This document shows, in pieces, positions 16,128 to 36,948 of a DNA stretch of 64,000 nt. Under the pieces are notes generated by a model, which was not told the DNA's origin, did not search any database, and saw nothing but the letters and a program-made list of their open reading frames with translations. The position numbers and the translations under genes were made by a program. The stretch lies in IMG/VR virus record IMGVR_UViG_3300017991_000003, positions 64,001-128,000 of that record; one strand, 5' to 3'. Position 1 is the first letter of the stretch, and every line of letters starts with the position of its first letter. Origin of the DNA: a virus.

Positions 16128-16129
16128 GT

Positions 16130-16164
16130 AAAAAAGAGGAGAGTAGCGAGCCGCTGCCCTCCTC
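16130..16164 (-). terminator. candidate intrinsic terminator between convergent genes
   Basis: A-run 16130-16135 then GAGGAG...CTCCTC stem on plus strand (hairpin followed by U-run on minus strand); long loop, weak. Confidence 0.3.
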
Positions 16165-16208
16165 CACACCGTGGGTCATCACCCCCTAGGATCCTCCCCG
16201 CAGTGTCG

Positions 16209-18107: not shown

Positions 18108-18198
18108 CTGGTTCTCTGGGTGGTTGTTACAAGACGTTTGTAGCCAAGGGACTTATGACCGATAGGAGACCCGAGCTGAGCACCCGGATCCCCTGTGG

Positions 18199-21924: not shown

Positions 21925-21980
21925 GGGCGTTCAGGGGGTTGCGGGTGTGTCGCTGATTGTTGACAGACGGCAGGCTGCTG

Positions 21981-24193: not shown

Positions 24194-24900
24194 GGCTTGG
24201 TCAGGGTCAGGATGGTGATCATGTAAGGCGTGCGCAGGAGTAGGTACTTGTCCTGGACTGCCCATAGCACGGGGCTCTTGCCTAGGAGGATCAGGCACTG
24301 GCGGAGCTTGGTGACGTTGACGGCCGGGTAACGGCGCTCACCCGAGATGGGGTACTCAGTCGGCTCGGCTCGAAGACCCTGCTGTGGGCAGATCTCCATG
24401 AACTGGTAGTTCAGGGCTGACTGATGTGCTCGCGATTGCGGGATGACACCCAGCGGGTCTCCGGTCACGCGCTTGAAGGCTGCGGAACGAGCAGCCAGTT
24501 GCTGCATCAGATCTGCGTGCGGGTAGTCAGGGCCGGCCTTCACTGGCGCAGCCCTCGGGGTGTCGAGCTGCGTGCTGCTGTAGATCGTGGTGACGGTCAT
24601 GTTGCAGACCATTCGATCTAGCGGCCAGTCCTCGACCCAGGTCAGCTCTTTGGTGATCGAGGGGTGCAGTTGGTAGAGCAGGCGGCCTCGACCGCGTGCT
24701 AGGTAAGGGCGCTTCCACGCAGCCAACCGGTGCGAGCCTTCGACCCGTTGAGGTGTTTGGTACTCCGCAAAGGGGCCGGCCGGTTCTGTCGGTTCTGCGG
24801 CTTTTCGAGGCTGCTCCAGGTGGGTCAGCAGGGTAAGGACTCGCGCCTGATCACCCGCGCTCAGGGCCTCGATACGCTCAGCGATGGTCTTGTCGGTCAC
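24190..24900 (-). CDS. hypothetical protein
   Basis: Track ORF 24190..25041 trimmed to GTG 24900 (VTDKTIAERIEAL...) preceded by AAGGAG about 7 nt upstream. Confidence 0.5.
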   Translation of the reverse strand: MTDKTIAERIEALSAGDQARVLTLLTHLEQPRKAAEPTEPAGPFAEYQTPQRVEGSHRLAAWKRPYLARGRGRLLYQLHPSITKELTWVEDWPLDRMVCNMTVTTIYSSTQLDTPRAAPVKAGPDYPHADLMQQLAARSAAFKRVTGDPLGVIPQSRAHQSALNYQFMEICPQQGLRAEPTEYPISGERRYPAVNVTKLRQCLILLGKSPVLWAVQDKYLLLRTPYMITILTLTKP

Positions 24901-25128
24901 TAAAAAGCTCCTTGGTGAATCAACCGGAGCAGAGCTCCGGAGGTGAAAGGTGCCCCACCCGCCGAGAGGCGAGTGGGGCGGTTGCCAGGATGCACACGAA
25001 CTACTGGAGTGGTGGACCTGAGCTGAGCCGGAGTATGGCACCGGATCGAGCCGGATTCAGTGACTGCGTATAGCTCGTTGGGTTTGTCTACCTCGTGGAT
25101 GAGCTCGGAGTCACGACTCGAGCGGAGT

Positions 25129-25290
25129 CGCCTGCCTCGAGCTCATTGTTGCCATCATCTCGTCTGGTTGATGAGATGGCGGCGGCTCCTCCTCTCCTGT
25201 TATCCTGCGCTTACAGTATTCTCGGTGCCCGAGCTCGACCCATCTCGTCAACCTGACGCGATGATGGCAACAATGAGCTCGAGGCAGGCG
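25129..25290. repeat. 36-bp inverted repeat (35/36 matching) with ~90-bp spacer
   Basis: Left arm 25129-25164 cgcctgcctcgagctcattgttgccatcatctcgtc; right arm 25255-25290 is its reverse complement with one mismatch. Confidence 0.85.
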
Positions 25291-25440
25291 CCGCAGCGAG
25301 AGGCGCCGTGGCTCAGCCTCGTGGTGGGCAAACCCACGAGTTATTCGCAGACACTGAAGCCGGCCCGGTTGACATGCTCTGGCTCAGCTCAGGGTCTACC
25401 CGTAGGTGCAAGTGTGGCCGAGGTTGCTGTTGCGCTATCT

Positions 25441-25455
25441 GCGGCGATGCGCCGC
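25441..25455. repeat. short inverted-repeat motif GCGGCGATGCGCCGC, copy 1 of 3
   Basis: CGGCG-ATG-CGCCG core read directly; recurs at 25787 and 26040. Confidence 0.8.
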
Positions 25456-25786
25456 AGGACCCTCAAGTCAAGAGGGAATAGCTCTTCGTGTGCGGGGATT
25501 CCAAGGCAAGAGCCTGGATGGGCGCGCAGAGCATGATCCCGGTCGTGGAGGCGTGCCCGAGCTTTGTACGCGACCCGGTTCGGGTCGAGGATAAAGCGAA
25601 GGACCAGCACGCTGTAACGATCCGTGGATTATGCTCCGCGCTGTCCCAGCCAGCGCTTCGTTGGTAGTGGGAGGCGCCTCCGCTAGGAGGCGACGTCCTC
25701 GAGTTGCGCTACTGAAGCGACCACACATGCTGGCATGTGTAGCTTCAGGTGCGCAGTGCTCGAGGCCCACGACCAGTCGTACAGTG

Positions 25787-25801
25787 GCGGCGATGCGCCG
25801 C
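25787..25801. repeat. short inverted-repeat motif GCGGCGATGCGCCGC, copy 2 of 3
   Basis: Identical 15-mer to copy 1; flanks extend the inverted repeat to 17 bp. Confidence 0.8.
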
Positions 25802-26039
25802 CTGAAGACGTTGTGGATTAGGCCTCCGGTAGGCCCGTTCCAGTCTTTCTACTCCCTTGGAAAGGTAGTCACCTCTTGCGAGGCTGGCTGGCTACCTTGG
25901 TATCGGCGCTCGTAGAGACTACCCGGTCACACGCCCGCCGGAGGCGGGCTTGTGGACGCGTGGTCTCAACGTAATGTGTCACAGGAGACAGCTCGAGGCG
26001 CAGCTCGAGCGGGCCTCCGGCCACAGTTTCTATCACTTG

Positions 26040-26054
26040 ACGGCGATGCGCCGC
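26040..26054. repeat. short inverted-repeat motif (a)CGGCGATGCGCCGC, copy 3 of 3
   Basis: 13-bp core identical to copies 1 and 2; spacing between copies about 345 and 250 bp. Confidence 0.75.
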
Positions 26055-26265
26055 CGCGGAAGTCAGATGGGCTAGCTAGACCACTTCTTTCCTTGCTCCG
26101 CCGAAGATGTACCTGTTGGCAGCCCTGGTACTGGGCTTTTGGCTATGAAGAACGGATCATCGGGGCCAACTACCCTCCTGCTCTTCGTGCCTGTTGGTAC
26201 CGGCCTTTGGCCGGCAGCCGAGCCTGCTCCGGATTATGTGGAGCAGACTCGGTTCACTTGGTGCG

Positions 26266-26733
26266 CTAGCCGCGCTCCTTGACGGGGACCTTCATGATGA
26301 GGACGTCGCCCTCCTTGAGGGTCATCCCGTCGGTCACCTCCTGGCCGCCGATGTGCGGCTTCGACCCCTCGGGGGTGCCGAAGCGGCGAGCGTACTCGGT
26401 CCGCGCGTCGGCGACCGAGGTGCCGGCGGCGACGTTGAGGCGGCCGGGCTCGCCCAGACCGTCGGTGGCCGCGGCGGTGACCGTGGCGACCGGACCCGCC
26501 TGCGGGGTCTCCTGGGTCGTCGGCGCCGTCGTGGCGGTGGGAGCGGTGCGCGTCACGGCGACGGCCACCTCGGTGTCCGTGGGCAGACCCGTGGTCTGGT
26601 CCCACTTGGTCGGATCCGAGTGGTCGACCTCGTAGAGCACGGGGTTGCCGGCCGCGTCGTTCGCGGGGGAGTCGGCGTAGCGGATGCGACGGTTGAGGGT
26701 GTCGAACGCGGGGCGCTTGATGTTTCCGGTCAT
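26266..26733 (-). CDS. small protein with candidate ThiS/MoaD-like beta-grasp (ubiquitin-like) C-terminal domain
   Basis: 155 aa; C-terminal ...IGGQEVTDGMTLKEGDVLIMKVPVKERG resembles ThiS/MoaD but ends RG, not GG; last gene of the RT-JAB-E1 operon. Confidence 0.4.
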   Translation of the reverse strand: MTGNIKRPAFDTLNRRIRYADSPANDAAGNPVLYEVDHSDPTKWDQTTGLPTDTEVAVAVTRTAPTATTAPTTQETPQAGPVATVTAAATDGLGEPGRLNVAAGTSVADARTEYARRFGTPEGSKPHIGGQEVTDGMTLKEGDVLIMKVPVKERG

Positions 26734-26756
26734 GGTGCAGAGGGTGTGTAGAGGGT

Positions 26757-27491
26757 TCAGGTGAGTTGGAGGGAGTGCTGCGTCTGCGGCGCGGCTTTCC
26801 CACCGAGCACGTCGACCACGATGGTGTTGAAGCTGGGCTTCATCGGGTCGTCGATCGTCAGGACCTGGGCGAACCAGGTCTGCAACATGGCCTGGGCGAC
26901 CGCTTGGTTCGCCAGAGCCAGTTGCGGCTGCGTCTCGTACTCCTGGGTGCAGTCCAGCTGATCGGGAAACTCGTTCCCAGGAGTCTCATGACGCATCTCG
27001 GGGTTCCGTTCGGTGAGCGACGCGCAGACGTCCTCGCTGTTGATGCGGCGCCAGAGCATGGCCTGGCCGCTGTCGAGGTCGTTGCCGCCGTCCACCCACG
27101 TGAACTCGTCGAGCTTGTCGAGCTGCTCCTCGAGGAAGCAGCGGGTCTTGTTGTTGTCCACGCAGCCGAACAGCGTGACGCCCTCGACCAACCACTCACG
27201 GTGGTGGTTCAGGAGCCGATCGCTCAGGTACATGGAGATCACCCGGACGTCCAGGCCCGGGAAGGTGTCTCGCAGGGTTCGGGCCATGATCTCGGCTTTG
27301 TTCTGGCCGATGGCCGCGGCGCCGTGCTGGCGCGCGAGGTTGTGGTCCTCGACCTCGTCGCCGTCGATGATGAAGAGGGTCGGATTCTGGATCCGATCCC
27401 CCACCATCTCAGGCGGGTGGGCGAGAAGACGAGCGAGCGGCTCGGCTAGGTGGTAGCCGATGCCGCCCGCTCCGAGGATGGCGTAGATCAT
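26757..27491 (-). CDS. E1-like enzyme (ThiF/MoeB/ubiquitin-activating family)
   Basis: Track ORF trimmed to ATG 27491 (MIYAILGAGGIGYHLAEP...); GxGxxG loop and E1 signature FIIDGDEVEDHNLARQ; collinear with ThiF/MoeB; starts 5 nt after the JAB gene stop. Confidence 0.8.
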   Translation of the reverse strand: MIYAILGAGGIGYHLAEPLARLLAHPPEMVGDRIQNPTLFIIDGDEVEDHNLARQHGAAAIGQNKAEIMARTLRDTFPGLDVRVISMYLSDRLLNHHREWLVEGVTLFGCVDNNKTRCFLEEQLDKLDEFTWVDGGNDLDSGQAMLWRRINSEDVCASLTERNPEMRHETPGNEFPDQLDCTQEYETQPQLALANQAVAQAMLQTWFAQVLTIDDPMKPSFNTIVVDVLGGKAAPQTQHSLQLT

Positions 27492-27495
27492 GAGG

Positions 27496-29394
27496 TCAGG
27501 GGTAGATGGGGAGGGTGGCTTCTGTTTCGGACTTGTTGCAGAAGGCGATCTCCTCGAGGAGGACATCGTCTTCCATGTCGTCGGGGTCCTCGAGGACTCC
27601 GTCCATCTCGAGCACCAGTCGATCCATCTGATCGAGGATCTCTTGGTAGTCCTTGCGGTAGGGAATGCCGGCGTTCTGGGCCGCCTTGCGGACGACAAAG
27701 TAGGTCAGCCGGAACCACTCGAGCAGGACGCCGTCGGAGTCCTCTCGCGAGAATGCCTCGACGTAGCTCAGGTTGGTCTCGATCACGGTCTCGATCACGG
27801 TGTCGATCGACGTCTCGGGGAACACAGTTTTCACCGTCGGGTCGGCGTAGACGTATTTCGAGAGCTTGTCGATCCGGGCATCCAGTGCGATCGACTTGAA
27901 TAGCCGGTCGAGAAGGTCGTCGATGCGATTCATCACCTCGTCGATGACGTCTCGAACCAGCATGCTGTAGAGGGTCTGACGACTCTCGGATGCGCTGTTC
28001 TGCGCTTCTTCGACGATCTCTTCGATCGTGGGGGCGTTATCGAACCACTCACTGGTCGAGGCGTGGTTCATGAGCAGATGCAGGGCTAGGGCCGTAGCGT
28101 TGCTCGACGTCAGACTGTCCTTGAACGAGGTGCAGTACGCCCACACGGCTCGTGGGAAGGTCGTTTGCTGACCCTCCGCCTTCTTGATCAGCTGAAGGGG
28201 GTAGTGCGCTTGCGGTGAGATCACCATGCCGTAGAAGCCGGTGTGCATCCGCTGGATGCGGAACTTCTTATCAGCGACCAGCGAAGGGCCAGAGGCTGTC
28301 TTGCTGACAGGTACCAGTGAGGTAGTCGTCTTCTTCGTCGTCTGGCCAAGGCCACCCTGCGCCCCCGTACCCCCAGTCTTGCCGCCAGGAGTCGAAGGCG
28401 TACCCGCTTTGCCGCCGGTCCACTTTTTCGAGCCATAGCCGCCATACCTGCTGGTCTTGGCTTTCTTCTCCGCCTCCTTGATGGCCTCGCTGGCCAACTT
28501 GAACGTGGTAAGACAACGGGCGGCCTCGCCCATCCTGTCCTTCCAACGCCCCAGGCTTTCCATCGACCCACAGAAGGTCATCACAGTGCTCGTGTCGACG
28601 TCCTCGAGCTTGTCGACGCTGAGACCGACGGCGAGCTCGTCGGGATCGACCCCGGCCTTCAGCATGGCTTCGCACAGTCCGGGGTGGGCGACCCGGTTCA
28701 GCCACAGCTGAATCAGATCCAGGCCGCCCTCCACGAAAGGGATGTCGAACAACTCCTCGAGACCGGTCGCGTGGCGGATGCCCTGCGCCTTCTCGTTGCG
28801 GTAGCCGGGGAGGGCGGTGACGAACGACGGGCACACCGAGAAGGGCGGCTTGTCCACGTTCCCGAAGGTGATGTGGAAGCCCGTCTGGTTGAGCTCGTTG
28901 GCGTCGTCGGTCGAGCTGTGGTAGGCTCCACCAGCGCCGTGACTGTGCGCGGTGCCGACGCAGATGAACTCGACAAGCTCTCCATCCTCGCAGATGGGGC
29001 AAGCGTTGCCGGCTTCGAGCTCGATCGAGCCGATGCGACAGGTCGTGCAGAAGCTCTTGACGTTGGGATCGTACTTCACGTGCCCCGCGGAGGCGGTGTA
29101 CCACGGCGGACTGACGAGGGTGTAGGCGTCGTCGACCGGCCCTCGGTGGAAGAGCACGAAGGCCTCGGTCTTCCACAGGCGGTAGACCTCGGCGAAGTAG
29201 CGGTAGACGAACATCGTCTCCGCCATGGAGATCTTGGGCCAGTTGGTGAGGTCCAGGTCACGCTGGATCTGGTCGGTTTCACCGAGGTCCTCGGCCCGGG
29301 CGGGAACGAAGGCCTGAGCCCAGGCGGCCCCGCCTGGGCCGATGGTCTTCAGCACGTGGGCTTGGTTGCCCTTGTAGTAGATGTCGGTGGTCAT
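27496..29394 (-). CDS. JAB/JAMM (MPN+) metalloprotease-domain protein with N-terminal zinc ribbon and long C-terminal extension
   Basis: Exact JAMM motif HSHGAGGAYHSSTD (HxHx7Sx2D) after CTTC...CPIC; Gly/Lys-rich linker; ATG 29394 overlaps upstream stop (ATGA). Confidence 0.7.
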   Translation of the reverse strand: MTTDIYYKGNQAHVLKTIGPGGAAWAQAFVPARAEDLGETDQIQRDLDLTNWPKISMAETMFVYRYFAEVYRLWKTEAFVLFHRGPVDDAYTLVSPPWYTASAGHVKYDPNVKSFCTTCRIGSIELEAGNACPICEDGELVEFICVGTAHSHGAGGAYHSSTDDANELNQTGFHITFGNVDKPPFSVCPSFVTALPGYRNEKAQGIRHATGLEELFDIPFVEGGLDLIQLWLNRVAHPGLCEAMLKAGVDPDELAVGLSVDKLEDVDTSTVMTFCGSMESLGRWKDRMGEAARCLTTFKLASEAIKEAEKKAKTSRYGGYGSKKWTGGKAGTPSTPGGKTGGTGAQGGLGQTTKKTTTSLVPVSKTASGPSLVADKKFRIQRMHTGFYGMVISPQAHYPLQLIKKAEGQQTTFPRAVWAYCTSFKDSLTSSNATALALHLLMNHASTSEWFDNAPTIEEIVEEAQNSASESRQTLYSMLVRDVIDEVMNRIDDLLDRLFKSIALDARIDKLSKYVYADPTVKTVFPETSIDTVIETVIETNLSYVEAFSREDSDGVLLEWFRLTYFVVRKAAQNAGIPYRKDYQEILDQMDRLVLEMDGVLEDPDDMEDDVLLEEIAFCNKSETEATLPIYP

Positions 29395-29816
29395 GTGGTG
29401 ATCAGGGGTGGGTGGAATCGACGTAGGACGGTCAAGACCGCCTGGGTGTCTTCGTTGATGTCTTGCTCGGCTAGTAGGTGATCGAGCCGGCGCATCCAAT
29501 CACGTAGGGTCGTGAGCTGCTCGGGGCCCATGCTCGCCGGAGGGTCGACGACAGGACGTCGGTCGCTCTCGTCTCGGATCAAGTTGAAGCGGATGTTGTT
29601 GATCCTTCCACCGTCTAGCGCAACTGGATAGGTGCGTTGGAAGATCTGACCAAGAGCCTCGATCATCTCTCGAGTAAGACCCGTCCCCTCAAGATCGAGA
29701 AGGTGCGGTCGGTTCTCGAGGATCCGAGATAGAAGCTCCTCGCGTCTCCGGATAATGGCCTGGTGATCATTGTGTCGATCACGCGCGCCTTGCACGGTGT
29801 CCAGAATGGTGGTCAT
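29391..29816 (-). CDS. hypothetical protein (operon member, no Cys)
   Basis: ATG 29816 (MTTILDTVQ...) overlaps stop of upstream gene (ATGA); 141 aa. Confidence 0.5.
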   Translation of the reverse strand: MTTILDTVQGARDRHNDHQAIIRRREELLSRILENRPHLLDLEGTGLTREMIEALGQIFQRTYPVALDGGRINNIRFNLIRDESDRRPVVDPPASMGPEQLTTLRDWMRRLDHLLAEQDINEDTQAVLTVLRRFHPPLITT

Positions 29817-30655
29817 CGGACCACCTCTCGCCACTTCTCGGCCGCCGTACCGAGCTCCCGGCCCAGTACGATCTCATCGACGTCCGTCTGCCAGGTCATG
29901 ATGCGATCCTCGGTCCAGCGCTGCCATCGACAGAACTGCCAGAGCATGACAGTGTTCATGTTCAGGCCCAGATCACGCCGCCTGTCGTAGTCGGTGTAGT
30001 CACCTTCGGGGAGTTGCTCGAAGTACGGGACCTCTCGAAGCGCTTCGGGAACCTCAAACCCCTCAGGGAGCGGCCCGCTGAAAGGTGGCATGGTCAGGGA
30101 GTGCTCGTAGTGCGCGTTGTAGCCGGACTCGTTGATGAGCTTGAGGACCATCTCCGGGATCGACTGGAGCCCGTTGTACCGGTACTGGCGGAACACAGCA
30201 CCCGTGCACATGCCTCCCGTATCTTGCTGGTTCGGTAGGAATGATTTGTACAGAACCGGGGTGTACCCCGCCTCCAGATGCGGCTGCTGCTTGGTGAAGA
30301 AGCAGCGGGCATCGGAGAGGCGCCCGTCGTAGATCGAGATGATGAAGACGCGCGCAGGCATGGCGACCAGGAATCGAAGACCCTCCGGCCAGCCGCGGTT
30401 CTCGCGGACGTCGATGGAGATCCTCTCAGCCCGCGGAGGCACGACTGCCATGAAGTGCTCGTTGTGGGCATCCTTGGTGTGTGCCAGGATGTTTACGTAG
30501 GGGTGGTACGGAAAGAGGGCGCCAGCGCGCCGGCCTCGTTCCTCGAGGGCGGTCACGACGTCTTCTTCCCGCGTGATGCGGTTGACGTGAACCGTTTGAT
30601 GGATCACGTGACCATCGACGATGACGAGTCGATCGTGGGTTTCGAAGTTGGTCAT
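29813..30655 (-). CDS. hypothetical protein translationally coupled to the reverse transcriptase (candidate accessory/effector)
   Basis: 280 aa; ATG at 30655 overlaps RT stop at 30652 (ATGA); no recognised motif. Confidence 0.55.
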   Translation of the reverse strand: MTNFETHDRLVIVDGHVIHQTVHVNRITREEDVVTALEERGRRAGALFPYHPYVNILAHTKDAHNEHFMAVVPPRAERISIDVRENRGWPEGLRFLVAMPARVFIISIYDGRLSDARCFFTKQQPHLEAGYTPVLYKSFLPNQQDTGGMCTGAVFRQYRYNGLQSIPEMVLKLINESGYNAHYEHSLTMPPFSGPLPEGFEVPEALREVPYFEQLPEGDYTDYDRRRDLGLNMNTVMLWQFCRWQRWTEDRIMTWQTDVDEIVLGRELGTAAEKWREVVR

Positions 30656-31755
30656 GGGAGGTACGCGCGTGTCTCGGCGCTGTAGTTGGTGGGGGTGTTG
30701 TGGTGCACGTCTTGCGCGACACGCAGTTGTAGTTGGAGCGAGGCTCCTTGATCAGGGTTGATGAAGTTGACGTGGTTGACGAGGCCGGCGAGGTGGTCAA
30801 AGTTCACCGGCACAGGGCCTCGGTGCGTCAGCTCTCCCCCACGGGGACAGCGGCCGAAGTGCGCGTCGCAGATGATCTTGTGCAGCCGGGCGCGAAGCGC
30901 GCGCCGTCGAGGCCTGGGAGCGCTTAGCTTCTCGTTGACGACGACGCCGCAGACCGTCATGCGACTGCCGATGGAGCGGAATCGGATCTTTTCGGGGGCG
31001 ACCTTGTAGCCCAGCTTTTTCAGGAACCCGATGACGGGGTACTGGAACTGGTACAGCTTTCTGTAATCCGCCGTGAAGGTCATGTCGTCGCTATAGCGGG
31101 TGTACGCGATCGGCAGGAGTCTGATCTGAGTCTGCGTCTTTCGCCGGCGCTCTCCGTGGTTGTCGACCCACCGCATCGTGGGGTTGGTCCGCCAGGACTC
31201 GATCAGCTTCAGGATGCCGAAGTCCACCTGAGCCCCTGCCAGGTTGGAGAGGAAGGGGGACGTGGGGGCTCCTTGTGGTAGGCCACCATCCAAGAAGCAG
31301 GCGCGTTTGACTCTGTCAAGGAAGAGCCTGTCGGCACGTGACATCGGTTGCATGTACCCCCTGGTCAGGAAGTACTCCAGCTGCTCGAGGACGACGTGGG
31401 GAGACACGGACGGGAAGAAGTCCCGCAGATCGATGTCCAGCTTGTACCGGTGACCTACATGCGGGGCGGCGTTGGTGTGGATACCACGCTTGCGGACGTA
31501 GGCATGAGCTGCTGGGGAGGCCCCGATCCCGAGCGCTTTGAGCTCGCTGAGGATGAGCTTTTGAGCAGCCATTAGCTCCGGGCAAGGGATCTGGAGCTTT
31601 CGCATCTTCTGACGTGTCCGACCGTTCGAAAGCGTCTCGAGTACCGGGACTTCTCGACCATCCCGGGTACGCCTGGTCTTGGGGATTCGTGCGAATCGGT
31701 AGTGCTCAGCTTGAGCGGTGTCCGTCAGGACATTGAATGATGGGTAGCCAGCCAT
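30652..31755 (-). CDS. reverse transcriptase, retron-type
   Basis: 367 aa; RT motifs: HTNAAPHVGHRYKLDIDLRDFFPSV (NAxxH + motif 2), LPQGAPTSPFLSNL (QGxxxSP), YTRYSDDMTF (YxDD), TVCGVVVN (VTG-like); GAGGGT SD before ATG 31755. Confidence 0.85.
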   Translation of the reverse strand: MAGYPSFNVLTDTAQAEHYRFARIPKTRRTRDGREVPVLETLSNGRTRQKMRKLQIPCPELMAAQKLILSELKALGIGASPAAHAYVRKRGIHTNAAPHVGHRYKLDIDLRDFFPSVSPHVVLEQLEYFLTRGYMQPMSRADRLFLDRVKRACFLDGGLPQGAPTSPFLSNLAGAQVDFGILKLIESWRTNPTMRWVDNHGERRRKTQTQIRLLPIAYTRYSDDMTFTADYRKLYQFQYPVIGFLKKLGYKVAPEKIRFRSIGSRMTVCGVVVNEKLSAPRPRRRALRARLHKIICDAHFGRCPRGGELTHRGPVPVNFDHLAGLVNHVNFINPDQGASLQLQLRVAQDVHHNTPTNYSAETRAYLP

Positions 31756-31811
31756 GATCTACCCTCAGATGACGGCGCAGATTGCGCTCAAGGCAAGAAG
31801 TAGCATGTGCT

Positions 31812-32414
31812 TCACTCCGTGGTTTGAGGAAGTAGCGGGAGGTCCGCCTGGTGAAAGGCCTGGAAGATCGCCGAGGCGACGGTCTTCAGACGGCTTTCGA
31901 AGATCAGGTGGTCCGGGTGAGACATCTCCCCAGCGGGCGGGAGCTCTTTGAACAGCCGGTCGATGATGGCTACGAGCAGGTCGTTAGCGTCGGCCTGGCT
32001 GACCAGGAGGCTCCGGGGGCGGAGGTTGATGTTCAGATTGGAGGCTATGCCCCGTAGCACCGGTGGACGGGACCGGGCCGCGTGGACGGCGAAGGCGATT
32101 GAGGCTAGCCGGTGGTTGTTGTCGGCCGCAGACGGTGTGGTGGTGGCGGGGTTGTGCTTGCGGAGCGGGTCCGTGTCGGGGACCGGGTCGGGCAGCACCA
32201 GGGGACCTACGCCGTTTTTGGCCAATCGGTGGTAAAGGCTTAGAGCTGCCAAAGCCCCGAGTCCCATAGCCGGCAGCAATGCGCGGTTGGAGACTCGAGC
32301 GGGGCGTGGTGCGTCGACTGAGTCGGTCGACCACCAGGCGGACAGCCCTTCACGAACGGGCCCTTCATAGAGGGGCCACGTCTTCGTCAAGGCATCAATG
32401 ACGGGGACGTACAT
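31812..32414 (-). CDS. hypothetical protein (uncertain; region may instead be non-coding leader of the RT operon)
   Basis: 200-aa ORF with no Shine-Dalgarno before its ATG. Confidence 0.3.
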   Translation of the reverse strand: MYVPVIDALTKTWPLYEGPVREGLSAWWSTDSVDAPRPARVSNRALLPAMGLGALAALSLYHRLAKNGVGPLVLPDPVPDTDPLRKHNPATTTPSAADNNHRLASIAFAVHAARSRPPVLRGIASNLNINLRPRSLLVSQADANDLLVAIIDRLFKELPPAGEMSHPDHLIFESRLKTVASAIFQAFHQADLPLLPQTTE

Positions 32415-32549
32415 TCAGATCCGGATAGGGAGGTGGAGATGTGTTCGTGTCGGCAAACAGTGGCTCACAGGACTCATGCCATGTCTGTTAGGTCTTTTCA
32501 TGCGGGCCCCCAGGCGCTATCCTGAGCCTGTCAACAACTGGAGACGACC

Positions 32550-33218
32550 ATGTCGCAACGACCCACAGGTTCTCGCCCCGCCCCGCGCGGCTCGATGATG
32601 TCCGCTGACGCCGCTGCCGCCGACGTGCGGGCTCGGCAAGAAGCCGCAGCCCAGGAGCAGCTACAGCAGCAGGCCCAGGCGGCCAATGAGGCTCCCTCTG
32701 AGGAGCAGACCGAGCTCGACGAGGCCATCAGCTCCCAGATCCCCAAGGAGGTTCAAACCTCCCGCGGGATGCGCCCCTACGCCCAGTTCAAGAAGGAGTT
32801 CGACGAGGTCTATGAGCAGGTCCGTGACAAGGACCACCTGCTCTCTGGTCGAGTGACATACTCGACCGAGCTGGCTGGTCTTCCTATCACCATCCAGAGC
32901 CTGCGCCAACGGGACCGGCGGCTGCTGGCGGCCTGGGCCCCTGACGCCCGGGATGAGCATCGGGCATTCATGGATGGGGAGTTCCAGTACCGCTCCCGCC
33001 TGATGGTCCTGTCCCTGGTCCGGGTTGGGGATGTGGAGTTCCCGAGCCTGCCGATCAAGACGGATCCGGAATCTTGGGAGAAGCAGGACCCGATCCAGCA
33101 GGCCCTGTCCTACGTTGAAGACTGGGACGAGACCCTGTTCAACGTGATCTTCGGGCTCCTATCTGACCTCGAGACCGCCAAGCACTTCGCGCTGCTGGAG
33201 AACCTGGGAAACCCCTAG
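32550..33218 (+). CDS. hypothetical protein
   Basis: 222 aa; GGAGAC SD before ATG; Gln/Ala-rich N-terminus. Confidence 0.55.
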   Translation: MSQRPTGSRPAPRGSMMSADAAAADVRARQEAAAQEQLQQQAQAANEAPSEEQTELDEAISSQIPKEVQTSRGMRPYAQFKKEFDEVYEQVRDKDHLLSGRVTYSTELAGLPITIQSLRQRDRRLLAAWAPDARDEHRAFMDGEFQYRSRLMVLSLVRVGDVEFPSLPIKTDPESWEKQDPIQQALSYVEDWDETLFNVIFGLLSDLETAKHFALLENLGNP

Positions 33219-33265
33219 CCACCCCGCTCGCGTACTACCGAGTCCGCCTGCTGCTGCGGGGCGGG

Positions 33266-33559
33266 GTGGATCTAGCGGAGTTCTCCTTCCTCGAGCAGCA
33301 AGACTTCATCGAGTACGAGCGGAAGGAGCAGGCGATGCGGTTCGTCGAGCAGGCGACCCAGATCTACGCCACCGCCAAGGATACGGAAAGTGCTAAGGCC
33401 CTCGTTGAGCGGCTCCGGGAGGAGCTCTTCATCGGCCAGGCCCAGGCCAAAGCTGAGCGCACCAAGCGTCTGAGTGACGAGCTGGTCGAGGCGATCCACA
33501 AGACCTATTCGATCACTACGGCCGGCGGAGCCGCTATCCTTGAGGTGAGCAATGACTGA
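33266..33559 (+). CDS. hypothetical protein
   Basis: 97-aa helical acidic ORF. Confidence 0.45.
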   Translation: MDLAEFSFLEQQDFIEYERKEQAMRFVEQATQIYATAKDTESAKALVERLREELFIGQAQAKAERTKRLSDELVEAIHKTYSITTAGGAAILEVSND

Positions 33560-34112
33560 ATCTTTCACCTCCCAGGTCCTCCGGCAGACCATCAAGCAGG
33601 TGCGGGCCGGGTCTCGAGACCTGACCAGCACCCGGCTTGAGCCTTACTACCGAGGGACGCGGCGCCTCTCGGCGGAGGAGGTGGCCAGCCGAGCCGCGGC
33701 CTCGGCCGCTTTTCGGCAGGAGGCTGGATTCCGACCTCTCTCCACGGCTGAGGCGGCCCAGCAGATCGGGGACAGCGGGGGCCGGGCCCTGTTCCTGACC
33801 CTCATGAGCGGGCTGGGACTGGAGCGTGAGTACGACGAGGACGTCGTCTCTCAGGATGCTGTGGAGGGGGTCCCGGATCTCGGGGACCGGACGACCTTTG
33901 CGGACACCAAAGCCGCCTCAGGCGCCTCGCTGACGGTCCAGGAGGCCCGTGCCGGCCTGCGGGCGGTCGAGGGCCTAGCCAGCCGCCTCCCCACGGGCGG
34001 GCAGGTCAAGCACATCCTTGAGCCCGCGCAGCCGGCCCTGGCGGATGATGATTCCGTGGTCCAGGAGCGGCTCGAGAAGATGTGGGACTACGTCCGCGAC
34101 CTGTTGCCGTAG
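33552..34112 (+). CDS. hypothetical protein
   Basis: 186 aa; overlaps upstream by 8 nt. Confidence 0.5.
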   Translation: MTESFTSQVLRQTIKQVRAGSRDLTSTRLEPYYRGTRRLSAEEVASRAAASAAFRQEAGFRPLSTAEAAQQIGDSGGRALFLTLMSGLGLEREYDEDVVSQDAVEGVPDLGDRTTFADTKAASGASLTVQEARAGLRAVEGLASRLPTGGQVKHILEPAQPALADDDSVVQERLEKMWDYVRDLLP

Positions 34113-34192
34113 GTCCGGTCGGAGCGGGGGTTTATACTCCTAGCAGGCGTAGGAGCCGCTTCTCTGGCACTGGGTGCCAGTGCCAGTAAACC

Positions 34193-36247
34193 ATGCCCGA
34201 CCCCTATCCGAACCAGAACCAGGCGCTGTACGCCCTCCAGCAGCGGATCCAGGCCCAGCAGCAGCAGCAAATGCGGGCTGAGTCCATGGCCGTGGGGGGC
34301 ACGAACTCCATGGCCACTGAGTCCATGCGGGTCTCGATGATGCTGCAACAGCAGCAGCTTCAGCTCCAGATGCAGCAGCAGATGCAGCAGCTGCGCTCGT
34401 CCATGTACGGGACGTTCACGGCTGGGGCGGGCGCCGCATCCCCGGTCATGCGCCAGAACTTCGGCTCTCTGGTGATGGGGGCTGGGGTGGCTCGGGGCGT
34501 CAACACGATGACCGGCGGGCTCCTATACCCGGACTACAACTACCATTGGGGCCTCACCCGGGCTCGGATGGAGCAGGACGCGTCGGACGAGCTCCGTCAG
34601 CGGATGTTCAGCGATGTCGGGAACGAGTTGATCGCTGGCCTGGTCCCGGACGTGATCCGACGCCGGACCGGGGCGGCCTTCGCAGGCTCGAGGCCTGAGT
34701 TTGTGCGGGCAGCTTATGCTCGCTACTCCGGTTTGCGGGGCGGGGACGTGGCCGCGTTCGGCGGTGGAGGTAACGTTGACGGACCTGGTCTGCGATTGCG
34801 GGCTGACGCGACACAGAGCTCAGCGCGGGCGTTCGAGGCCGGGCTTTTGAACCTCAACCGCCGGCTTGGGTATGCCCTCGGTAGCGATGAGGTGAGCATG
34901 CTCCAGGACGTCACGGCAGGCCTCTCGGTCCACCAGGCCTTCCGAGGTCAGCGCGCTGGGGAGTCGGTCCTTGCCTCGGATAACCGCCAGGTTCAGAGCC
35001 TGATTAGCAGCATTCATGACCTGAGTCGTGCTCTCCAGCTGAACGTTGATCAAACGCGCGAGATGGTGAACATGGGCCGGCAGCACGGCTTGATGCCTAA
35101 CAGCTCGGCGTTCCAGGCTCTGGGAGCCATCGGCCAGGGCGGAAACCTGATCCAGATGAGCAACGCGGATCGGGCCCGGTACGCTATGCCGATCATGGCT
35201 CAGGCCCGCGGGATGGGCATGGACGCGGTCACCGCAGTCAACCGGCGGTTCGGTAGTGCGGAGGGCGTCCTAGGCCGCTACCGGGCTGGCCTCATGTCTG
35301 ATGCGCAGCTGTTCCGATTCGGCGGGACCAGTGAGGACGACGCCGCGATGCGCGTCGCGGAGTATCAAGAGCGGCTCGGTCTGGGATACGCCTCGCGGTT
35401 CGGAGGCAGTCTTGGGGCACTCTCCTATGCGGGGCAGTCTGTCGGAGGTGCTATCAGCACCGGGGCCCGGTTGGGTGCGGTTCTTGGATCCAACCCTCTG
35501 GCAGGTTTGCGTGCTTCTATGAGTGGGGCGGTGCGCTCGAACATGGCAGGCTCGATGCAGATGGATGCTTACGCCTATGCGCAGGATGCCTACCGCATCG
35601 GCGAATCGATTCAACCGGGCGGCGGTGAGGTACTTGCCGCTCGAGTATTCGGCCAGATGATCGGTGAGTCTGACCCGGTTCAGGCTATGAACATGTATCG
35701 GCAAATTGCCGGTGAGGTCGGCGCTGTCCAGCGTGGTACGTCGCTCAGTGGGGCAGAGTCTCTGCGGTTTGTCCGTACCCGTCGAATGATGCAGCAGGTG
35801 ACCGGCGAAGCCCCGGATATGTTGGATACAGCTAGGCTGTATCAATCTTTGGCGGGACGGGATGTGACCGCGGTGAGTGTTGCCCGGGCGCTAGCCCTCT
35901 CGGGAGCAGGCAGCAACACGCAGACGTCGCGCGAGTCTATCAACAGTGGCTATCGACAGGCGTCCGTGGATAAGTTCCGAAAGCTGATTACGGGACAGAC
36001 GGATCCGTCGCTCCTAGCCGTGATTGCCGAGATCTCCAACCTAGATGGGACGGGACTATCGGTGGATGTTCTTCAGGACATGGCCATCAACAAGAACAGC
36101 TCTGGGTGGAACACCGACGCTGTCAGTGTTCGGGAGCTCCTGACGATGGATCAGTTCCTCGGTAACTTTGGGAAGATCAACAAGAACCCAGACAAGCCCC
36201 CGAGCGGGACTGAGAACAATCCGATCTACGTGAAGACGGTGAGCTGA
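34193..36247 (+). CDS. large hypothetical protein (possible virion or internal protein)
   Basis: 684 aa; Gln-rich N-terminus (QQQQLQLQMQQQMQQ), Gly/Ala/Ser-rich body; ATG 34193. Confidence 0.6.
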   Translation: MPDPYPNQNQALYALQQRIQAQQQQQMRAESMAVGGTNSMATESMRVSMMLQQQQLQLQMQQQMQQLRSSMYGTFTAGAGAASPVMRQNFGSLVMGAGVARGVNTMTGGLLYPDYNYHWGLTRARMEQDASDELRQRMFSDVGNELIAGLVPDVIRRRTGAAFAGSRPEFVRAAYARYSGLRGGDVAAFGGGGNVDGPGLRLRADATQSSARAFEAGLLNLNRRLGYALGSDEVSMLQDVTAGLSVHQAFRGQRAGESVLASDNRQVQSLISSIHDLSRALQLNVDQTREMVNMGRQHGLMPNSSAFQALGAIGQGGNLIQMSNADRARYAMPIMAQARGMGMDAVTAVNRRFGSAEGVLGRYRAGLMSDAQLFRFGGTSEDDAAMRVAEYQERLGLGYASRFGGSLGALSYAGQSVGGAISTGARLGAVLGSNPLAGLRASMSGAVRSNMAGSMQMDAYAYAQDAYRIGESIQPGGGEVLAARVFGQMIGESDPVQAMNMYRQIAGEVGAVQRGTSLSGAESLRFVRTRRMMQQVTGEAPDMLDTARLYQSLAGRDVTAVSVARALALSGAGSNTQTSRESINSGYRQASVDKFRKLITGQTDPSLLAVIAEISNLDGTGLSVDVLQDMAINKNSSGWNTDAVSVRELLTMDQFLGNFGKINKNPDKPPSGTENNPIYVKTVS

Positions 36248-36948
36248 TGGGGAGCATCGACGACGTCCTGTCTGGCACCGGCCCCGACGATACGGATCTG
36301 ACCCAGGGTCCGCAGGTGTCGAGCTCGGATGATTACGAGATCGTGCTTGGGTACGATCCTGCGGATTATCGCCACCTGGGTGCGGCGATGGGGGCGGAGT
36401 ACGACAAGGTCCCTGCCACGCTGGTAGTTCGCGACATCGGAGACGCGGCCACGGCGCAGGAAGGGATCATCGATGCAGCCAGCACAGCGTTGGCTCAAGT
36501 ACTGCCCTTCCCGCTCGGTCTGGTAGCTAATGCTGGGCTCGAGATCGCGCTCTCGCCGATCGTATTCATCACAGACAAGCTGATCCTTACCAGCGCGGTC
36601 GAGCCTCGCAGCGCCCGATCGGCTATGGTGATGAGCTTCAATCAGCCGACGGTCTACACGTCGGGCATGCAGCCCTACATTTTCCGGTACGCGGGTCACG
36701 TGTTGATCAACGAGCTGGATGGGGACGGGCGCAACCAGTTCTACGCTGCCTACCGGGAGTACCTGCGCGCCTCAGCTAGCCTGGTCGGGGCGGAGCGGCA
36801 GACCATGCCGTGGGTCGTAGAGCTCACCTTCCGAGATATGTTCCGCGCCGGGTATGTGGTCGACCTGTCGATGTCGATCAACGCAGCAGAGCCTAGCAAG
36901 GCTGACATCTCGTTCACCCTCTTCGTGATCGATGACCGGTTCTCCTGA
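36247..36948 (+). CDS. hypothetical protein
   Basis: 233 aa; TGATG coupling to upstream gene. Confidence 0.55.
   Translation: MGSIDDVLSGTGPDDTDLTQGPQVSSSDDYEIVLGYDPADYRHLGAAMGAEYDKVPATLVVRDIGDAATAQEGIIDAASTALAQVLPFPLGLVANAGLEIALSPIVFITDKLILTSAVEPRSARSAMVMSFNQPTVYTSGMQPYIFRYAGHVLINELDGDGRNQFYAAYREYLRASASLVGAERQTMPWVVELTFRDMFRAGYVVDLSMSINAAEPSKADISFTLFVIDDRFS

What the first reader, a model, noticed from the sequence alone, without database searches (positions are those of the whole stretch)
30652..31755. Retron-type RT with no recognisable msr-msd non-coding RNA beside it
The RT carries NAxxH (HTNAAPH), QGxxxSP, YxDD (YSDD) and a VTG-like triplet (VCG), as expected for retron RTs and not for DGR RTs. 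The usual upstream position is occupied by a 200-aa ORF lacking a Shine-Dalgarno (31812-32414), and I could not find a1/a2 inverted repeats by eye. Either the ncRNA is unusually placed or cryptic, 31812-32414 is really a leader RNA, or this RT is not a retron.
Basis: partly seen in the sequence, partly recalled or inferred. Interest (0 to 1): 0.7.

Follow-up and report, generated by a model that had tools for sequence, protein, structure and literature searches.

The report
Phage retron-like RT with giant hairpin RNA
A large environmental phage carries a retron-type reverse transcriptase inside a ubiquitin-like conjugation operon, and its apparently missing template RNA is most likely a giant structured RNA about 5 kb downstream, whose 377-base hairpin looks selected to fold as the DNA copy rather than as the RNA.

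Summary
A 367-aa retron-type RT lies at 30652-31755 (-), a 200-aa ORF sits directly upstream, and no msr-msd lies beside it.

The "leader RNA" reading fails. ORF200 is a conserved protein gene, and the region folds no better than shuffled sequence (z -1.07).

The RT is the second gene of an operon conserved in about 14 lineages of large metagenomic phages. The order is membrane protein, 13-codon micro-ORF, RT, E2-like protein, 147-aa protein, JAB protein, ThiF/E1, and a Ubl ending in Gly.

A 1365-nt ORF-free, strongly structured stretch (24901-26265) follows the operon. It holds 7-bp/3-nt-loop hairpins (SH) whose wobble pairs favour the operon strand (14:2). It also holds a 377-nt imperfect hairpin (25017-25393) whose wobble pairs favour the opposite strand (82:15 over seven lineages).

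Covarying 7-15-nt arms (a1/a2) close the unit SH + giant hairpin in five lineages. That is retron msr-msd architecture, and the hairpin polarity fits selection on a cDNA.

An 11-13-nt motif in this RNA is the exact complement of the RT start-codon region in four lineages.

My best reading (about 0.5) is a new retron variant with a 3'-placed, giant ncRNA and a Ubl-conjugation partner. No msDNA evidence exists, and the giant hairpin is missing from several relatives.

The parts
31812..32414 (-). ORF200: conserved protein gene with a probable membrane segment (LLPAMGLGALAALSLY). It is not a leader RNA.
   Evidence: GC3 is 0.77. More distant relatives carry a 66-136-aa ORF at this position; in two of them (L008, L009) it contains a hydrophobic segment.
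31765..31806 (-). 13-codon micro-ORF MLLLALSAICAVI* between ORF200 and the RT.
   Evidence: It is conserved at the amino-acid level, with synonymous changes, in the window, L001, L004 and L005.
30652..31755 (-). Retron-type reverse transcriptase, 367 aa.
31742..31755 (-). RT start region ATGGCTGGCTACCC. It is identical, including synonymous sites, in four lineages and is the exact complement of the motif at 25885-25897.
29813..30655 (-). E2-like protein, 280 aa, with invariant P141-N142 and C150 followed by a nearly invariant G152.
   Evidence: Alignment A4. The L013 homologue has a weak Prok-E2_D match at 0.009. hhalign aligns the PN..C stretch with HPN..Cys85 of UbcH5B, but at low probability. 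The single-sequence AF2 model was unusable at pLDDT 36.
29391..29834 (-). Conserved 147-aa protein of unknown function.
   Evidence: A 119-163-aa gene occupies this position in the relatives.
27496..29499 (-). 667-aa protein with a JAB/MPN metalloprotease motif (HSHGAGGAYHSSTDD).
   Evidence: Prok-JAB 2.9e-05. PRTRC protein A 5.7e-4. The relatives also carry Prok-JAB matches.
26757..27491 (-). ThiF/E1-like adenylating enzyme. The probable start is the ATG at 27491; the longer 313-aa ORF reaching 27698 overlaps the JAB gene.
   Evidence: ThiF 9.2e-14. PRTRC ThiF 5.8e-15. PADLOC E1-E2 models. Relatives are 241-259 aa. Start position.
26266..26733 (-). Ubiquitin-like protein candidate, 155 aa. 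The C-terminal ~70-aa domain ends K-E-R-G.
   Evidence: Alignment A7. Sub-threshold profile matches to SUMO, Ub-RPS31, PF1061 and SAMP2.
24901..26265 (-). 1365-nt ORF-free structured RNA region that follows the operon.
   Evidence: The 872-nt part has z -7.75. The equivalent ORF-free stretch is present in all relatives. The next gene most likely starts at the GTG at 24900, after an AAGGAG.
26039..26055 (-). SH1: small hairpin GGCGGCG-CAT-CGCCGTC, with a G.U pair on the operon strand.
25885..25897 (-). Motif AGGTAGCCAGCCA at the 5' edge of a ~120-nt conserved module (..CAAGGGAGT..hairpin..CAG-SH2). It is the complement of the RT start.
25786..25802 (-). SH2: small hairpin GGCGGCG-CAT-CGCCGCC.
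25698..25764 (-). 67-nt hairpin downstream of SH2; candidate template of a second, smaller unit.
25485..25493 (-). a1: GCACACGAA, the 5' arm of the closing helix. A G follows immediately.
25460..25476 (-). H1: hairpin CCCTC-TTGACTT-GAGGG.
25440..25456 (-). SH3: small hairpin TGCGGCG-CAT-CGCCGCA, starting 63 nt before the giant hairpin.
25017..25393 (-). Giant imperfect hairpin (GH), 377 nt; candidate msd template. The predicted cDNA would have the + strand sequence from about 25001 to 25400-25435.
   Evidence: Nested inverted repeats. MFE -243 kcal/mol, z -16.2. It folds better as the + strand, and mismatches on the operon strand are mostly A.C.
24992..25000 (-). a2: TTCGTGTGC, the 3' arm of the closing helix.
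   Evidence: 9/9 nt paired to a1 in the MFE fold of the 514-nt unit.
24952..24979 (-). GC-rich hairpin followed by ACCTTTCACC; probable 3' end or terminator of the RNA.
   Evidence: (I19). The same hairpin-plus-ACYTTTC arrangement occurs in L001 and L005.

Best explanation
This is a retron-like system carried as a vertically inherited module of a family of large (about 90-190 kb contigs) environmental tailed phages. One leftward operon encodes a small membrane protein, a 13-aa peptide, a retron-type RT, an E2-like protein, a 147-aa protein, a JAB protease, an E1 (ThiF) and a Ubl ending in Gly.

The RT's template is not upstream. It lies at the 3' end of the operon, in a 1.37-kb non-coding stretch transcribed on the same strand. 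The unit there has retron msr-msd shape. In order it reads: a 9-nt arm a1 followed by a G; two stem-loops (H1, and the conserved 7-bp/3-nt-loop SH); a ~45-nt spacer; a 377-nt imperfect hairpin; and arm a2.

Inferred mechanism: the RT binds the SH/H1 part and primes near the G after a1. It then copies the RNA from just 5' of a2 through the hairpin. The product would be a ~0.4-kb single-stranded DNA with the + strand sequence, which folds into the hairpin.

Shown here: the operon and its conservation; the structured RNA region; the opposite strand polarity of wobble pairs in SH and in the giant hairpin; the covarying a1/a2 arms; and the complementarity between an RNA motif and the RT start codon region.

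Inferred only: that this RT copies this RNA; that priming is 2'-5' branched; and that the RT-cDNA complex works with or controls the Ubl-conjugation enzymes, by analogy with retron effectors. The motif complementary to the RT start may repress RT translation or compete with the closing helix.
For: RT classification.

Operon conservation: the same gene order occurs in L001-L010, L012, L171-L174, L295 and L298. L013 and L297 keep RT + JAB + E1 with rearrangements. RT identity falls in step with the neighbouring 222-aa protein.

Structure: the giant hairpin has z -16.2. Hairpins of 213-494 nt occupy the same position, with unrelated sequences, in L001, L005, L009, L012, L174 and L298.

Polarity of the giant hairpin: in six lineages it carries 77 A.C pairs (which are G.U on the opposite strand) against 14 G.U pairs on the operon strand. 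L298 adds 5 against 1. Composition at 4-fold degenerate sites predicts fractions of 0.41-0.56; per-lineage binomial p values run from 0.12 down to 4.6e-4.

Polarity of the small hairpins: an unbiased count gives 14 G.U against 2 A.C inside the gaps, and 21 against 22 outside. These hairpins are about 10-fold enriched in the gaps.

Closing helix: a1/a2 arms of different sequence occupy matching positions (a1 ends 23-29 nt before SH, a2 starts 4-17 nt after the hairpin) in the window, L001, L005 and L009. Fisher's combined p is 0.0046 over six lineages. The arms pair in the MFE fold of the whole unit at 9/9, 7/8, 11/11 and 7/7 nt. L298 has a 15-nt a1/a2 pair.

Transcription direction: tRNA genes lie on the operon strand in the same gap in six lineages, so this strand is transcribed there.

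Link to the RT gene: GGTAGCCAGCC(A) in the RNA is the exact complement of (A/G)TGGCTGGCTACC at the RT start in four lineages. The minor codon GCT is invariant there.
Against: There is no experimental msDNA and no expression data.

The giant hairpin is not found in L004/L091, L171, L173, L013 or L297. L004 has only a ~70-nt hairpin inside an a1/a2-like closure. L013 has no RNA region next to its operon.

The same gap holds tRNA genes in six lineages. It may therefore be a general RNA-gene cluster kept next to the operon by synteny alone.

Each a1/a2 pair is only weakly significant on its own (p 0.01-0.13), and none was found in L012 or L174. The position of the branching G is not conserved.

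A template 5 kb from its RT, and an msDNA of about 400 nt, are both far outside known retrons (my recollection of the retron literature, not tested here).

The complementarity to the RT start is not an outlier in strength within any single genome. A matching covariation in distant lineages was seen only as a single 11-mer in L012.

The RT score is below NCBIfam's curated retron cut-off, and no formal phylogeny was made.
Confidence: 0.5

Rival explanations
1. The RT-Ubl operon is real, but the downstream stretch is an independent phage RNA-gene cluster (tRNAs plus structured small RNAs). The giant hairpin would then be a separate antisense hairpin RNA transcribed from the + strand. The RT would use another template elsewhere in the ~190-kb genome, or none (for example protein-primed or untemplated synthesis, as in some Abi/DRT enzymes).
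For: tRNA genes lie in the gap in L008, L009, L171, L174, L295 and L297. The giant hairpin is absent from several RT-bearing lineages. L013 has the operon without an adjacent RNA region. Only 64 kb of a 193-kb contig was examined.
Against: No promoter or gene on the + strand was found between 21981 and 32414. SH, H1, the terminator-like hairpins and the tRNAs are all on the operon strand, on both sides of the giant hairpin. The a1/a2 arms close SH and the hairpin into a single unit. An RNA motif is complementary to the RT start. PADLOC and NCBIfam rank Abi/DRT models far below retron models.
Confidence: 0.28
2. The small hairpins and the giant palindrome are DNA elements of the phage replication origin. 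The SH copies would be dyad-symmetric binding sites for the O-like initiator encoded just downstream. The giant hairpin would be a strand-specific single-strand initiation site or an origin palindrome.
For: The region lies directly upstream of the replication module: O-like initiator at 21981-23402, DnaB at 18199-19593, primase and DNA polymerase. Three exact copies of CGGCGCATCGCCG occur only here in 64 kb. A strand-specific ssDNA hairpin would also show G.T wobble on one strand.
Against: The SH copies are 253 and 346 nt apart rather than clustered. Their asymmetry is directional, at 14 G.U against 2 A.C, which a symmetric dsDNA site would not show. SH and the giant hairpin have opposite polarity. 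The region is not AT-rich, at GC 0.60-0.67. In my understanding, single-strand origins of this kind are known from rolling-circle plasmids and ssDNA phages, not from large dsDNA phages.
Confidence: 0.12
3. GGCTGGCTACC at the RT start and GGTAGCCAGCC in the gap are DNA-level inverted repeats that bound a mobile or invertible 5.9-kb cassette (RT to Ubl).
For: Exact 11-13-nt inverted repeats are conserved in four lineages.
Against: No recombinase or transposase was detected in the operon. All fetched lineages show one orientation. The operon is syntenic and appears to diverge in step with its neighbours, which suggests vertical inheritance. The repeat sits on the RT start codon, so inversion would decapitate the RT.
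Confidence: 0.04
4. The RT belongs to another RT class (DGR, group II intron, Abi/UG/DRT), or ORF200 is a leader RNA.
For: The NAxxH asparagine is not conserved in the family, whose consensus is MAxPH. The RT score is below NCBIfam's retron cut-off.
Against: No template/variable repeat pair exists in 64 kb. No group II intron RNA is found. The group II maturase model scores 2e-10 and Drt2 1.4e-4, against 1.8e-38 for the retron model. ORF200 evolves as a protein and has no excess RNA structure.
Confidence: 0.04

Closest known systems
Bacterial retrons (RT + msr-msd ncRNA + effector; the 13 types of the Mestre et al. 2020 classification, recalled from memory)
   Same: The RT is most similar to retron RTs and carries QGxxxSP, YxDD and a VTG-like VCG. 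The candidate ncRNA is on the same strand as the RT. It has flanking complementary arms, 5' stem-loops and a 3' long hairpin. Accessory genes are co-conserved in the same operon.
   Different: The RT fits no defined type: the best PADLOC models III-A, XIII, Ec107-like, X and II-A all score about 138-150 bits. The candidate ncRNA lies 5.2-6.8 kb downstream of the RT start, after five further genes, instead of directly upstream. The hairpin is 213-494 nt, whereas known msDNAs are shorter than about 200 nt as I recall. Several SH units may share one RT. The system is a syntenic, apparently vertically inherited part of phage genomes rather than a bacterial defence-island element. The partner genes form a Ubl-conjugation set not listed among retron effectors. 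A search of the held literature for retron + ThiF found nothing relevant.
Bacterial ubiquitin-like conjugation operons (Bil; type II CBASS Cap2/Cap3; the PRTRC cassette of mobile elements)
   Same: The operon has an E1 of the ThiF family, a JAB protease, a small beta-grasp-like protein ending in Gly, and a protein with a PN...C motif like the E2 active site. The nearest NCBIfam models are PRTRC ThiF (5.8e-15) and PRTRC protein A (5.7e-4).
   Different: All scores are below the curated cut-offs. No ParB is present, so this is not a PRTRC cassette. No CD-NTase is present, so it is not CBASS. The JAB motif lies inside a 570-670-aa protein. The operon is coupled to an RT and a structured RNA. It is encoded by phages, next to their tail and replication modules.
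Single-strand initiation hairpins (sso/ssi of rolling-circle plasmids, minus-strand origins of ssDNA phages)
   Same: They are long imperfect hairpins that function in only one strand polarity.
   Different: Those elements are about 55-300 nt and occur in replicons that pass through an ssDNA stage. Here the replicon is a large dsDNA phage. The hairpin is embedded in an RNA unit of the opposite polarity.

Membership tests
Retron | RT belongs to the retron RT clade | tested here: met
   The top 25 PADLOC matches are all retron RT models, at 2.4e-44 to 3.4e-26. NCBIfam retron_St85_RT scores 1.8e-38, against 2e-10 for group II and 1.4e-4 for Drt2, but its 132 bits fall below the curated 235. The 12 best PDB matches are retron RTs. 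No tree was built and no retron type could be assigned.
Retron | Retron-specific motifs NAxxH and VTG | tested here: inconclusive
   The window has NAAPH and VCG. Across the 12-member family, A96, H99 and G270 are invariant, but the Asn is usually Met (consensus MAxPH), and the family consensus reads VCG rather than VTG.
Retron | msr-msd ncRNA next to the RT, flanked by a1/a2 inverted repeats, with msr stem-loops and an msd stem-loop | tested here: inconclusive
   Nothing lies adjacent to the RT. A unit with this shape lies 5.2-6.8 kb downstream of the RT start. Its a1/a2 arms covary in five lineages. It matches no Rfam model.
Retron | Branching G and production of RNA-linked multicopy ssDNA | not testable with these tools
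   A G follows a1 within 1-4 nt, but its position is not conserved. The wobble polarity of the hairpin is consistent with selection on a cDNA. That is indirect evidence.
Retron | Co-conserved effector gene(s) | tested here: met
   The E2-like, JAB, E1 and Ubl genes follow the RT in all lineages examined. Whether they act as effectors is not known.
Diversity-generating retroelement | Template repeat and variable repeat pair near the RT | tested here: not met
   blastn of the gap against the whole 64-kb window finds only the self-match, the hairpin arms and chance matches of 19 nt or less. The RT motif is QGxxxSP.
Group II intron | Intron RNA domains around an RT/maturase ORF | tested here: not met
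   No Rfam intron match was found. The maturase model scores 40 bits against a cut-off of 300.
PRTRC cassette | ThiF, protein A (JAB-like), proteins B-F and ParB together | tested here: not met
   Only the ThiF and protein A models match, both below cut-off. No ParB or other PRTRC model matched the operon proteins.
Ubiquitin-like conjugation system (generic E1-E2-DUB-Ubl) | E1 adenylation domain | tested here: met
   ThiF scores 9.2e-14, above Pfam's cut-off.
Ubiquitin-like conjugation system (generic E1-E2-DUB-Ubl) | E2 fold with a catalytic Cys after an (H)PN motif | tested here: inconclusive
   PN and C are invariant, with a nearly invariant G two residues after the Cys, in 13 sequences. 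hhalign aligns the stretch to the UbcH5B active site at 6.9% probability. One homologue has a weak Prok-E2_D match. The profile finds no PDB match. The structure model failed.
Ubiquitin-like conjugation system (generic E1-E2-DUB-Ubl) | Beta-grasp Ubl with a C-terminal Gly, and a JAB protease | tested here: inconclusive
   The C-terminus K-x-R-G is nearly invariant. Profile matches to SUMO, SAMP2 and PF1061 are only at E 0.2-0.6. The window's Prok-JAB match is 2.9e-05 at 24.3 bits, against a cut-off of 25. The L297 homologue is a strong match at 1e-16.

The most novel reading that the evidence does not exclude
A family of large phages keeps, as a core module, a retron whose RT copies a 3'-placed template into a ~0.2-0.5-kb hairpin DNA. 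That would be the longest retron product by far. This RT-DNA complex would act together with a complete phage-encoded ubiquitin-like conjugation machine (E1, E2, JAB, Ubl). It could serve as scaffold, sensor or regulator, and the RNA could feed back on RT translation by pairing with the RT start codon. This would be the first link between reverse transcription and ubiquitin-like conjugation, and the first retron used by a virus for its own cycle.
Probability: 0.3. Interest if true: 0.9.

Novelty: new variant of a known kind. Interest (0 to 1): 0.8.

Why it matters
Retrons are known as bacterial anti-phage systems with short templates placed directly upstream of the RT. If this reading is right, three things follow.

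- Phages themselves maintain retron-type RTs over long evolutionary distances. RT identity falls to 24% while synteny is kept.
- ncRNA searches confined to the RT's immediate upstream region miss part of retron diversity.
- A natural RT may make structured ssDNA several hundred bases long. That bears on retron-based genome editing, where template length and processivity are limiting.

The co-conserved E1/E2/JAB/Ubl set would also be a new class of retron partner. It could show what phage-encoded ubiquitin-like conjugation does.

Finally, the opposite wobble polarity within one RNA unit is a purely computational signature. It could be used to find other templates whose functional form is the cDNA.

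Tried and rejected
- **Rfam searches.** Gathering score on the whole window, E<=10 on 24000-33000 and E<=10 on the gap alone gave only chance-level matches to miRNA and sRNA models.
- **Folding 31756-32549 as a leader RNA.** z is -1.07, so this reading was rejected.
- **Promoter/terminator consensus scan.** It was uninformative, with 0 promoters found.
- **Pattern scan of viral contigs.** It was discarded.
- **RNAduplex of the RT start against the gap.** Long sequences with large internal loops made it uninformative. One earlier script timed out.
- **Ungapped complementarity scoring.** The RT-start pairing is not an outlier within any single genome. The claim therefore rests on cross-lineage conservation.
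- **Whole-flank strand comparison by MFE.** It gave mixed results, possibly because one strand is G+U-richer. I replaced it with pair-type counts.
- **Microdiversity.** L001, L002 and L003 are essentially identical (one difference in 8.3 kb) across the operon and gap, so they give no compensatory changes.
- **Search for RT-less relatives.** Using the neighbouring 222-aa protein as query found only the window itself and L297, which also has an RT. The co-occurrence test could not be done.
- **Homologue search for the E2-like protein.** It returned only the query itself. The single-sequence model was unusable.
- **Literature.** No paper in the held library links a retron or RT with ThiF/E1/JAB operons, and the exact phrase 'phage-encoded retron' occurs in no held paper.
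- **L013.** It has no clear ncRNA upstream of its RT.
Full report
**1. What the window is**

The 64-kb window (GC about 62%) is part of a phage genome. The same sequence is an IMG/VR viral contig, and the RT protein occurs on a 193-kb contig.

The window encodes a DNA polymerase, a primase, a DnaB-like helicase, an exonuclease, a collagen-like tail-fibre protein and an O-like replication initiator. It has no tRNA gene and no Rfam match at gathering score.

**2.

- Pfam RVT_1 matches at 4.4e-14.
- PADLOC retron RT models occupy all 25 listed places, at 2.4e-44 to 3.4e-26. No single type stands out: III-A, XIII, Ec107-like, X and II-A all score about 138-150 bits.
- NCBIfam gives retron_St85_RT 1.8e-38, group II maturase 2e-10 and Drt2 1.4e-4. 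The retron score of 132 bits is below the curated 235.
- The 12 best PDB matches are retron RTs.

The RT is therefore retron-type but belongs to no defined type.

There is no DGR-style repeat pair in the window. No retron msr or other known RNA family is found near the RT.

**3. ORF200 is a protein gene**

Three relatives whose RTs are 49-52% identical carry a 187-201-aa ORF at the same position, at 38-52% amino-acid identity and with a conserved hydrophobic segment.

Codon-position differences are 0.57-0.67 at position 3, 0.40-0.49 at position 1 and 0.31-0.39 at position 2. Between 46% and 66% of identical residues use different codons.

The RNA of 31756-32549 folds no better than shuffles, with z -1.07. 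The "leader RNA" alternative is rejected.

The 56-nt space between ORF200 and the RT is taken up by a conserved 13-codon micro-ORF, MLLLALSAICAVI.

**4. The RT sits in a ubiquitin-like conjugation operon conserved across phages**

Downstream of the RT, on the same strand, lie five genes.

- A 280-aa protein with invariant PN and C plus a nearly invariant G, spaced like the HPN...Cys active site of E2 enzymes. One homologue has a weak Prok-E2_D match.
- A 147-aa protein of unknown function.
- A 667-aa protein with a JAB motif.
- A ThiF/E1 enzyme.
- A 155-aa protein whose conserved C-terminal ~70 residues end K-E-R-G. Its profile gives sub-threshold matches to SUMO, SAMP2 and PF1061.

The same order is found in L001-L010, L012, L171-L174, L295 and L298. 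All are on metagenomic contigs of up to 183 kb whose flanks carry tail-like and replication genes.

L013 and the most distant relative, L297, keep RT + JAB + E1 with rearranged domains.

RT identity (52% down to 24%) falls in step with that of the neighbouring 222-aa protein (58% down to 28%). This suggests vertical inheritance as part of the phage backbone.

The nearest named relatives of the E1 and JAB proteins are the PRTRC cassette proteins. Both scores are below cut-off and no ParB is present. I found no paper in the held library linking an RT with such an operon.

**5. A structured RNA region follows the operon**

After the Ubl gene there is a stretch with no credible ORF. It spans 24901-26265, because the next gene most likely starts at the GTG at 24900 after an AAGGAG.

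Every relative has such a gap, 0.6-2.3 kb long. In six relatives the gap contains tRNA genes on the operon strand, which shows that this strand is transcribed there.

The window's gap is strongly structured. The first 872 nt have z -7.75, and the 411-nt segment 25000-25410, which contains the giant hairpin, has z -16.2.

**6. Small hairpins (SH) work as RNA on the operon strand**

Three exact copies of CGGCGCATCGCCG occur in the gap and nowhere else in 64 kb. Each is a 7-bp stem with a 3-nt loop.

Hairpins of this form, with covarying stems, occur 1-4 times in 12 of the 13 relatives' gaps examined; L173 has only a single variant carrying an A.C pair. They are about 10-fold denser in the gaps than in 259 kb of flanking sequence.

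I then made an unbiased count allowing one non-Watson-Crick pair of any kind. Inside the gaps there are 14 perfect stems, 14 with one G.U on the operon strand, 2 with one A.C and 4 with another mismatch. Outside the gaps, G.U against A.C is 21:22. The element therefore functions as RNA of operon polarity.

**7. The giant hairpin (GH) has the opposite polarity**

Nested inverted repeats make 25017-25393 a 377-nt imperfect hairpin. Hairpins of 213-494 nt lie at the same place, 42-63 nt after an SH, in L001, L005, L009, L012, L174 and L298. They share no sequence similarity.

In every one of these lineages the strand opposite to the operon folds better, by 23-56 kcal/mol.

Counted over the union of both folds, six lineages have 77 A.C positions (G.U on the opposite strand) against 14 G.U on the operon strand. 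L298 adds 5 against 1.

Base composition at 4-fold degenerate sites of the operon genes predicts fractions of 0.41-0.56. The per-lineage binomial p values are 0.12, 4.6e-4, 8.6e-3, 5.3e-4, 7.8e-4 and 2.8e-3. Mutational strand bias therefore does not explain the pattern.

The hairpin appears to be selected as a single strand complementary to the transcript that carries SH. Most medium-sized hairpins in the gaps show the same direction.

**8. The unit has retron shape**

In the window the order on the operon strand is as follows.

| Element | Sequence | Coordinates |
|---|---|---|
| a1 | GCACACGAA, then G | 25493-25485 |
| H1 | hairpin | 25476-25460 |
| SH3 | hairpin | 25456-25440 |
| spacer | 46 nt | |
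| GH | giant hairpin | 25393-25017 |
| spacer | 16 nt | |
| a2 | TTCGTGTGC | 25000-24992 |
| 3' end | GC-rich hairpin, then ACCTTTCACC | 24979-24952 |

L001 (ACTTCTAA/TTAGAAGT), L005 (GCAGCAGTTGA/TCAACTGCTGC) and L009 (AAGGATC/GATCCTT) have arms of different sequence at matching positions. In all four lineages a1 ends 23-29 nt before SH, and a2 starts 4-17 nt after GH.

The shuffle p values are 0.025, 0.11, 0.0105 and 0.125. L012 and L174 show no such pair. Fisher's combined p is 0.0046 over all six lineages.

In MFE folds of the complete 514-605-nt units, a1 pairs with a2 at 9/9, 7/8, 11/11 and 7/7 nt, and H1, SH and GH all form. L298 has a 15-nt a1/a2 pair enclosing two SH and its GH.

This matches the retron ncRNA layout as I know it from the retron literature: a closing helix, 5' stem-loops as the msr, and a 3' long hairpin as the msd. 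In retrons the cDNA is complementary to the msd RNA, which is the polarity seen in section 7.

**9. A direct sequence link to the RT gene**

A ~120-nt module precedes SH2. It reads RAGGTAGCCAGCC..CAAGGGAGTRATRAG-hairpin-CTCACAG-SH and is conserved in the window, L001, L004/L091/L092 and L005.

Its first 11-13 nt are the exact reverse complement of (A/G)TGGCTGGCTACC at the RT start. That sequence is invariant in the same four lineages, including the minor Ala codon GCT, while the following codons vary at synonymous sites.

Within any single genome a 12-mer complement is not unusual. The argument is the joint invariance of two complementary 11-mers in sequences that are otherwise diverged.

In L004 the same motif also pairs with a downstream UGGCUACC after a 70-nt hairpin, closing a smaller retron-shaped unit.

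I read the RT-start complementarity as either translational feedback on the RT or competition with the closing helix. This is inference. A DNA-level inverted repeat is a minor alternative.

**10. Weighing the readings**

The most economical account of sections 5-9 is that the missing ncRNA exists but lies at the 3' end of the operon, and that its msd is a giant hairpin copied into DNA.

Several points weigh against it.

- GH is absent from L004/L091, L171, L173, L013 and L297.
- L013 has no adjacent RNA region.
- The gap also holds tRNA genes, so synteny alone might explain the adjacency.
- The a1/a2 arms are short.
- No relatives lacking the RT were found, so co-occurrence could not be tested.
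- There is no expression or msDNA evidence.

The origin-of-replication rival draws on the position directly upstream of the replication module. It does not explain the opposite, directional wobble patterns.

I put the retron-with-distal-giant-ncRNA model at about 0.5. An unrelated RNA cluster or antisense RNA gets about 0.28, an origin element about 0.12, and the remaining readings share about 0.1 (0.04 each for the two named, the rest unassigned).

**11. Verdict**

What is really there is a phage-borne retron-type RT embedded in an E1/E2/JAB/Ubl operon, followed by a retron-shaped giant RNA. I found no description of such a system in the held literature. It is best filed as a new variant of the retron kind, and it is of high interest pending a simple experiment: detection of RT-dependent ssDNA.

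Noticed in passing
window 31765-31806 (-): A 13-codon micro-ORF (MLLLALSAICAVI*) lies between ORF200 and the RT. It is conserved at the amino-acid level, with synonymous changes, in the window, L001, L004 and L005. L009 and L010 have similar short hydrophobic ORFs. It may be a leader peptide or a mini membrane protein.
   Followed up: partly
window 31742-31755 (-) and 25885-25897 (-): The RT start codon region ATGGCTGGCTACC and the gap motif GGTAGCCAGCCA are exact reverse complements. Both are invariant in four lineages whose proteins are only about 50% identical.
   Followed up: partly
window 26039-26055, 25786-25802, 25440-25456 (-): Three copies of one 7-bp/3-nt-loop hairpin are spaced 253 and 346 nt apart. 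Each may head a separate RNA unit, so one RT might serve several templates.
   Followed up: partly
L008 15796-15949, L009 15087-15160, L171 8163-8324, L174 7618-7690, L295 12286-12357, L297 2047-2122: tRNA genes (Ala, Gly, Ile, Leu) lie on the operon strand in the equivalent gap of six relatives. The window's own gap has none.
   Followed up: partly
L174 7242-7539 and 8052-8355: This relative has two giant hairpins in a 2.3-kb gap, separated by a tRNA-Ala gene. Both fold better on the strand opposite to the operon.
   Followed up: partly
window 26757-27698 (-) and 24190-25041 (-): The longest ORFs overstate two genes. The E1 most likely starts at 27491, because relatives are 241-259 aa. The gene after the gap most likely starts at the GTG at 24900, after an AAGGAG, so its apparent N-terminus overlapping the giant hairpin is not coding.
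   Followed up: yes
window 32550-41711 (+): The divergent cluster encodes proteins of 222, 97, 186, 684, 233, 184, 1159 and 257 aa and is conserved in all relatives. Its sizes and order recall a siphovirus tail-tip module. The 684-aa and 1159-aa proteins match no PHROG. One member shows a faint Sigma70_r3 match in relatives.
   Followed up: no
window 4487-23402 (-): A replication module lies on the same strand as the RT operon and directly after the RNA gap. It comprises an O-like initiator (21981-23402), a DnaB-like helicase (18199-19593), a primase (8555-9634) and a DNA polymerase (4487-7027).
   Followed up: partly
window 9633-13409 (+): A 1258-aa protein with collagen-like tail-fibre repeats is inserted between replication genes on the opposite strand.
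   Followed up: no
L013 7984-8652 and L297 3160-3726: Distant relatives rearrange the Ubl machinery. L013 has a shorter, 222-aa E2-like protein with a weak Prok-E2_D match. L297 has a stand-alone 188-aa JAB protein (Prok-JAB 1e-16) and two unknown proteins of 507 and 552 aa between the RT and the JAB gene.
   Followed up: partly
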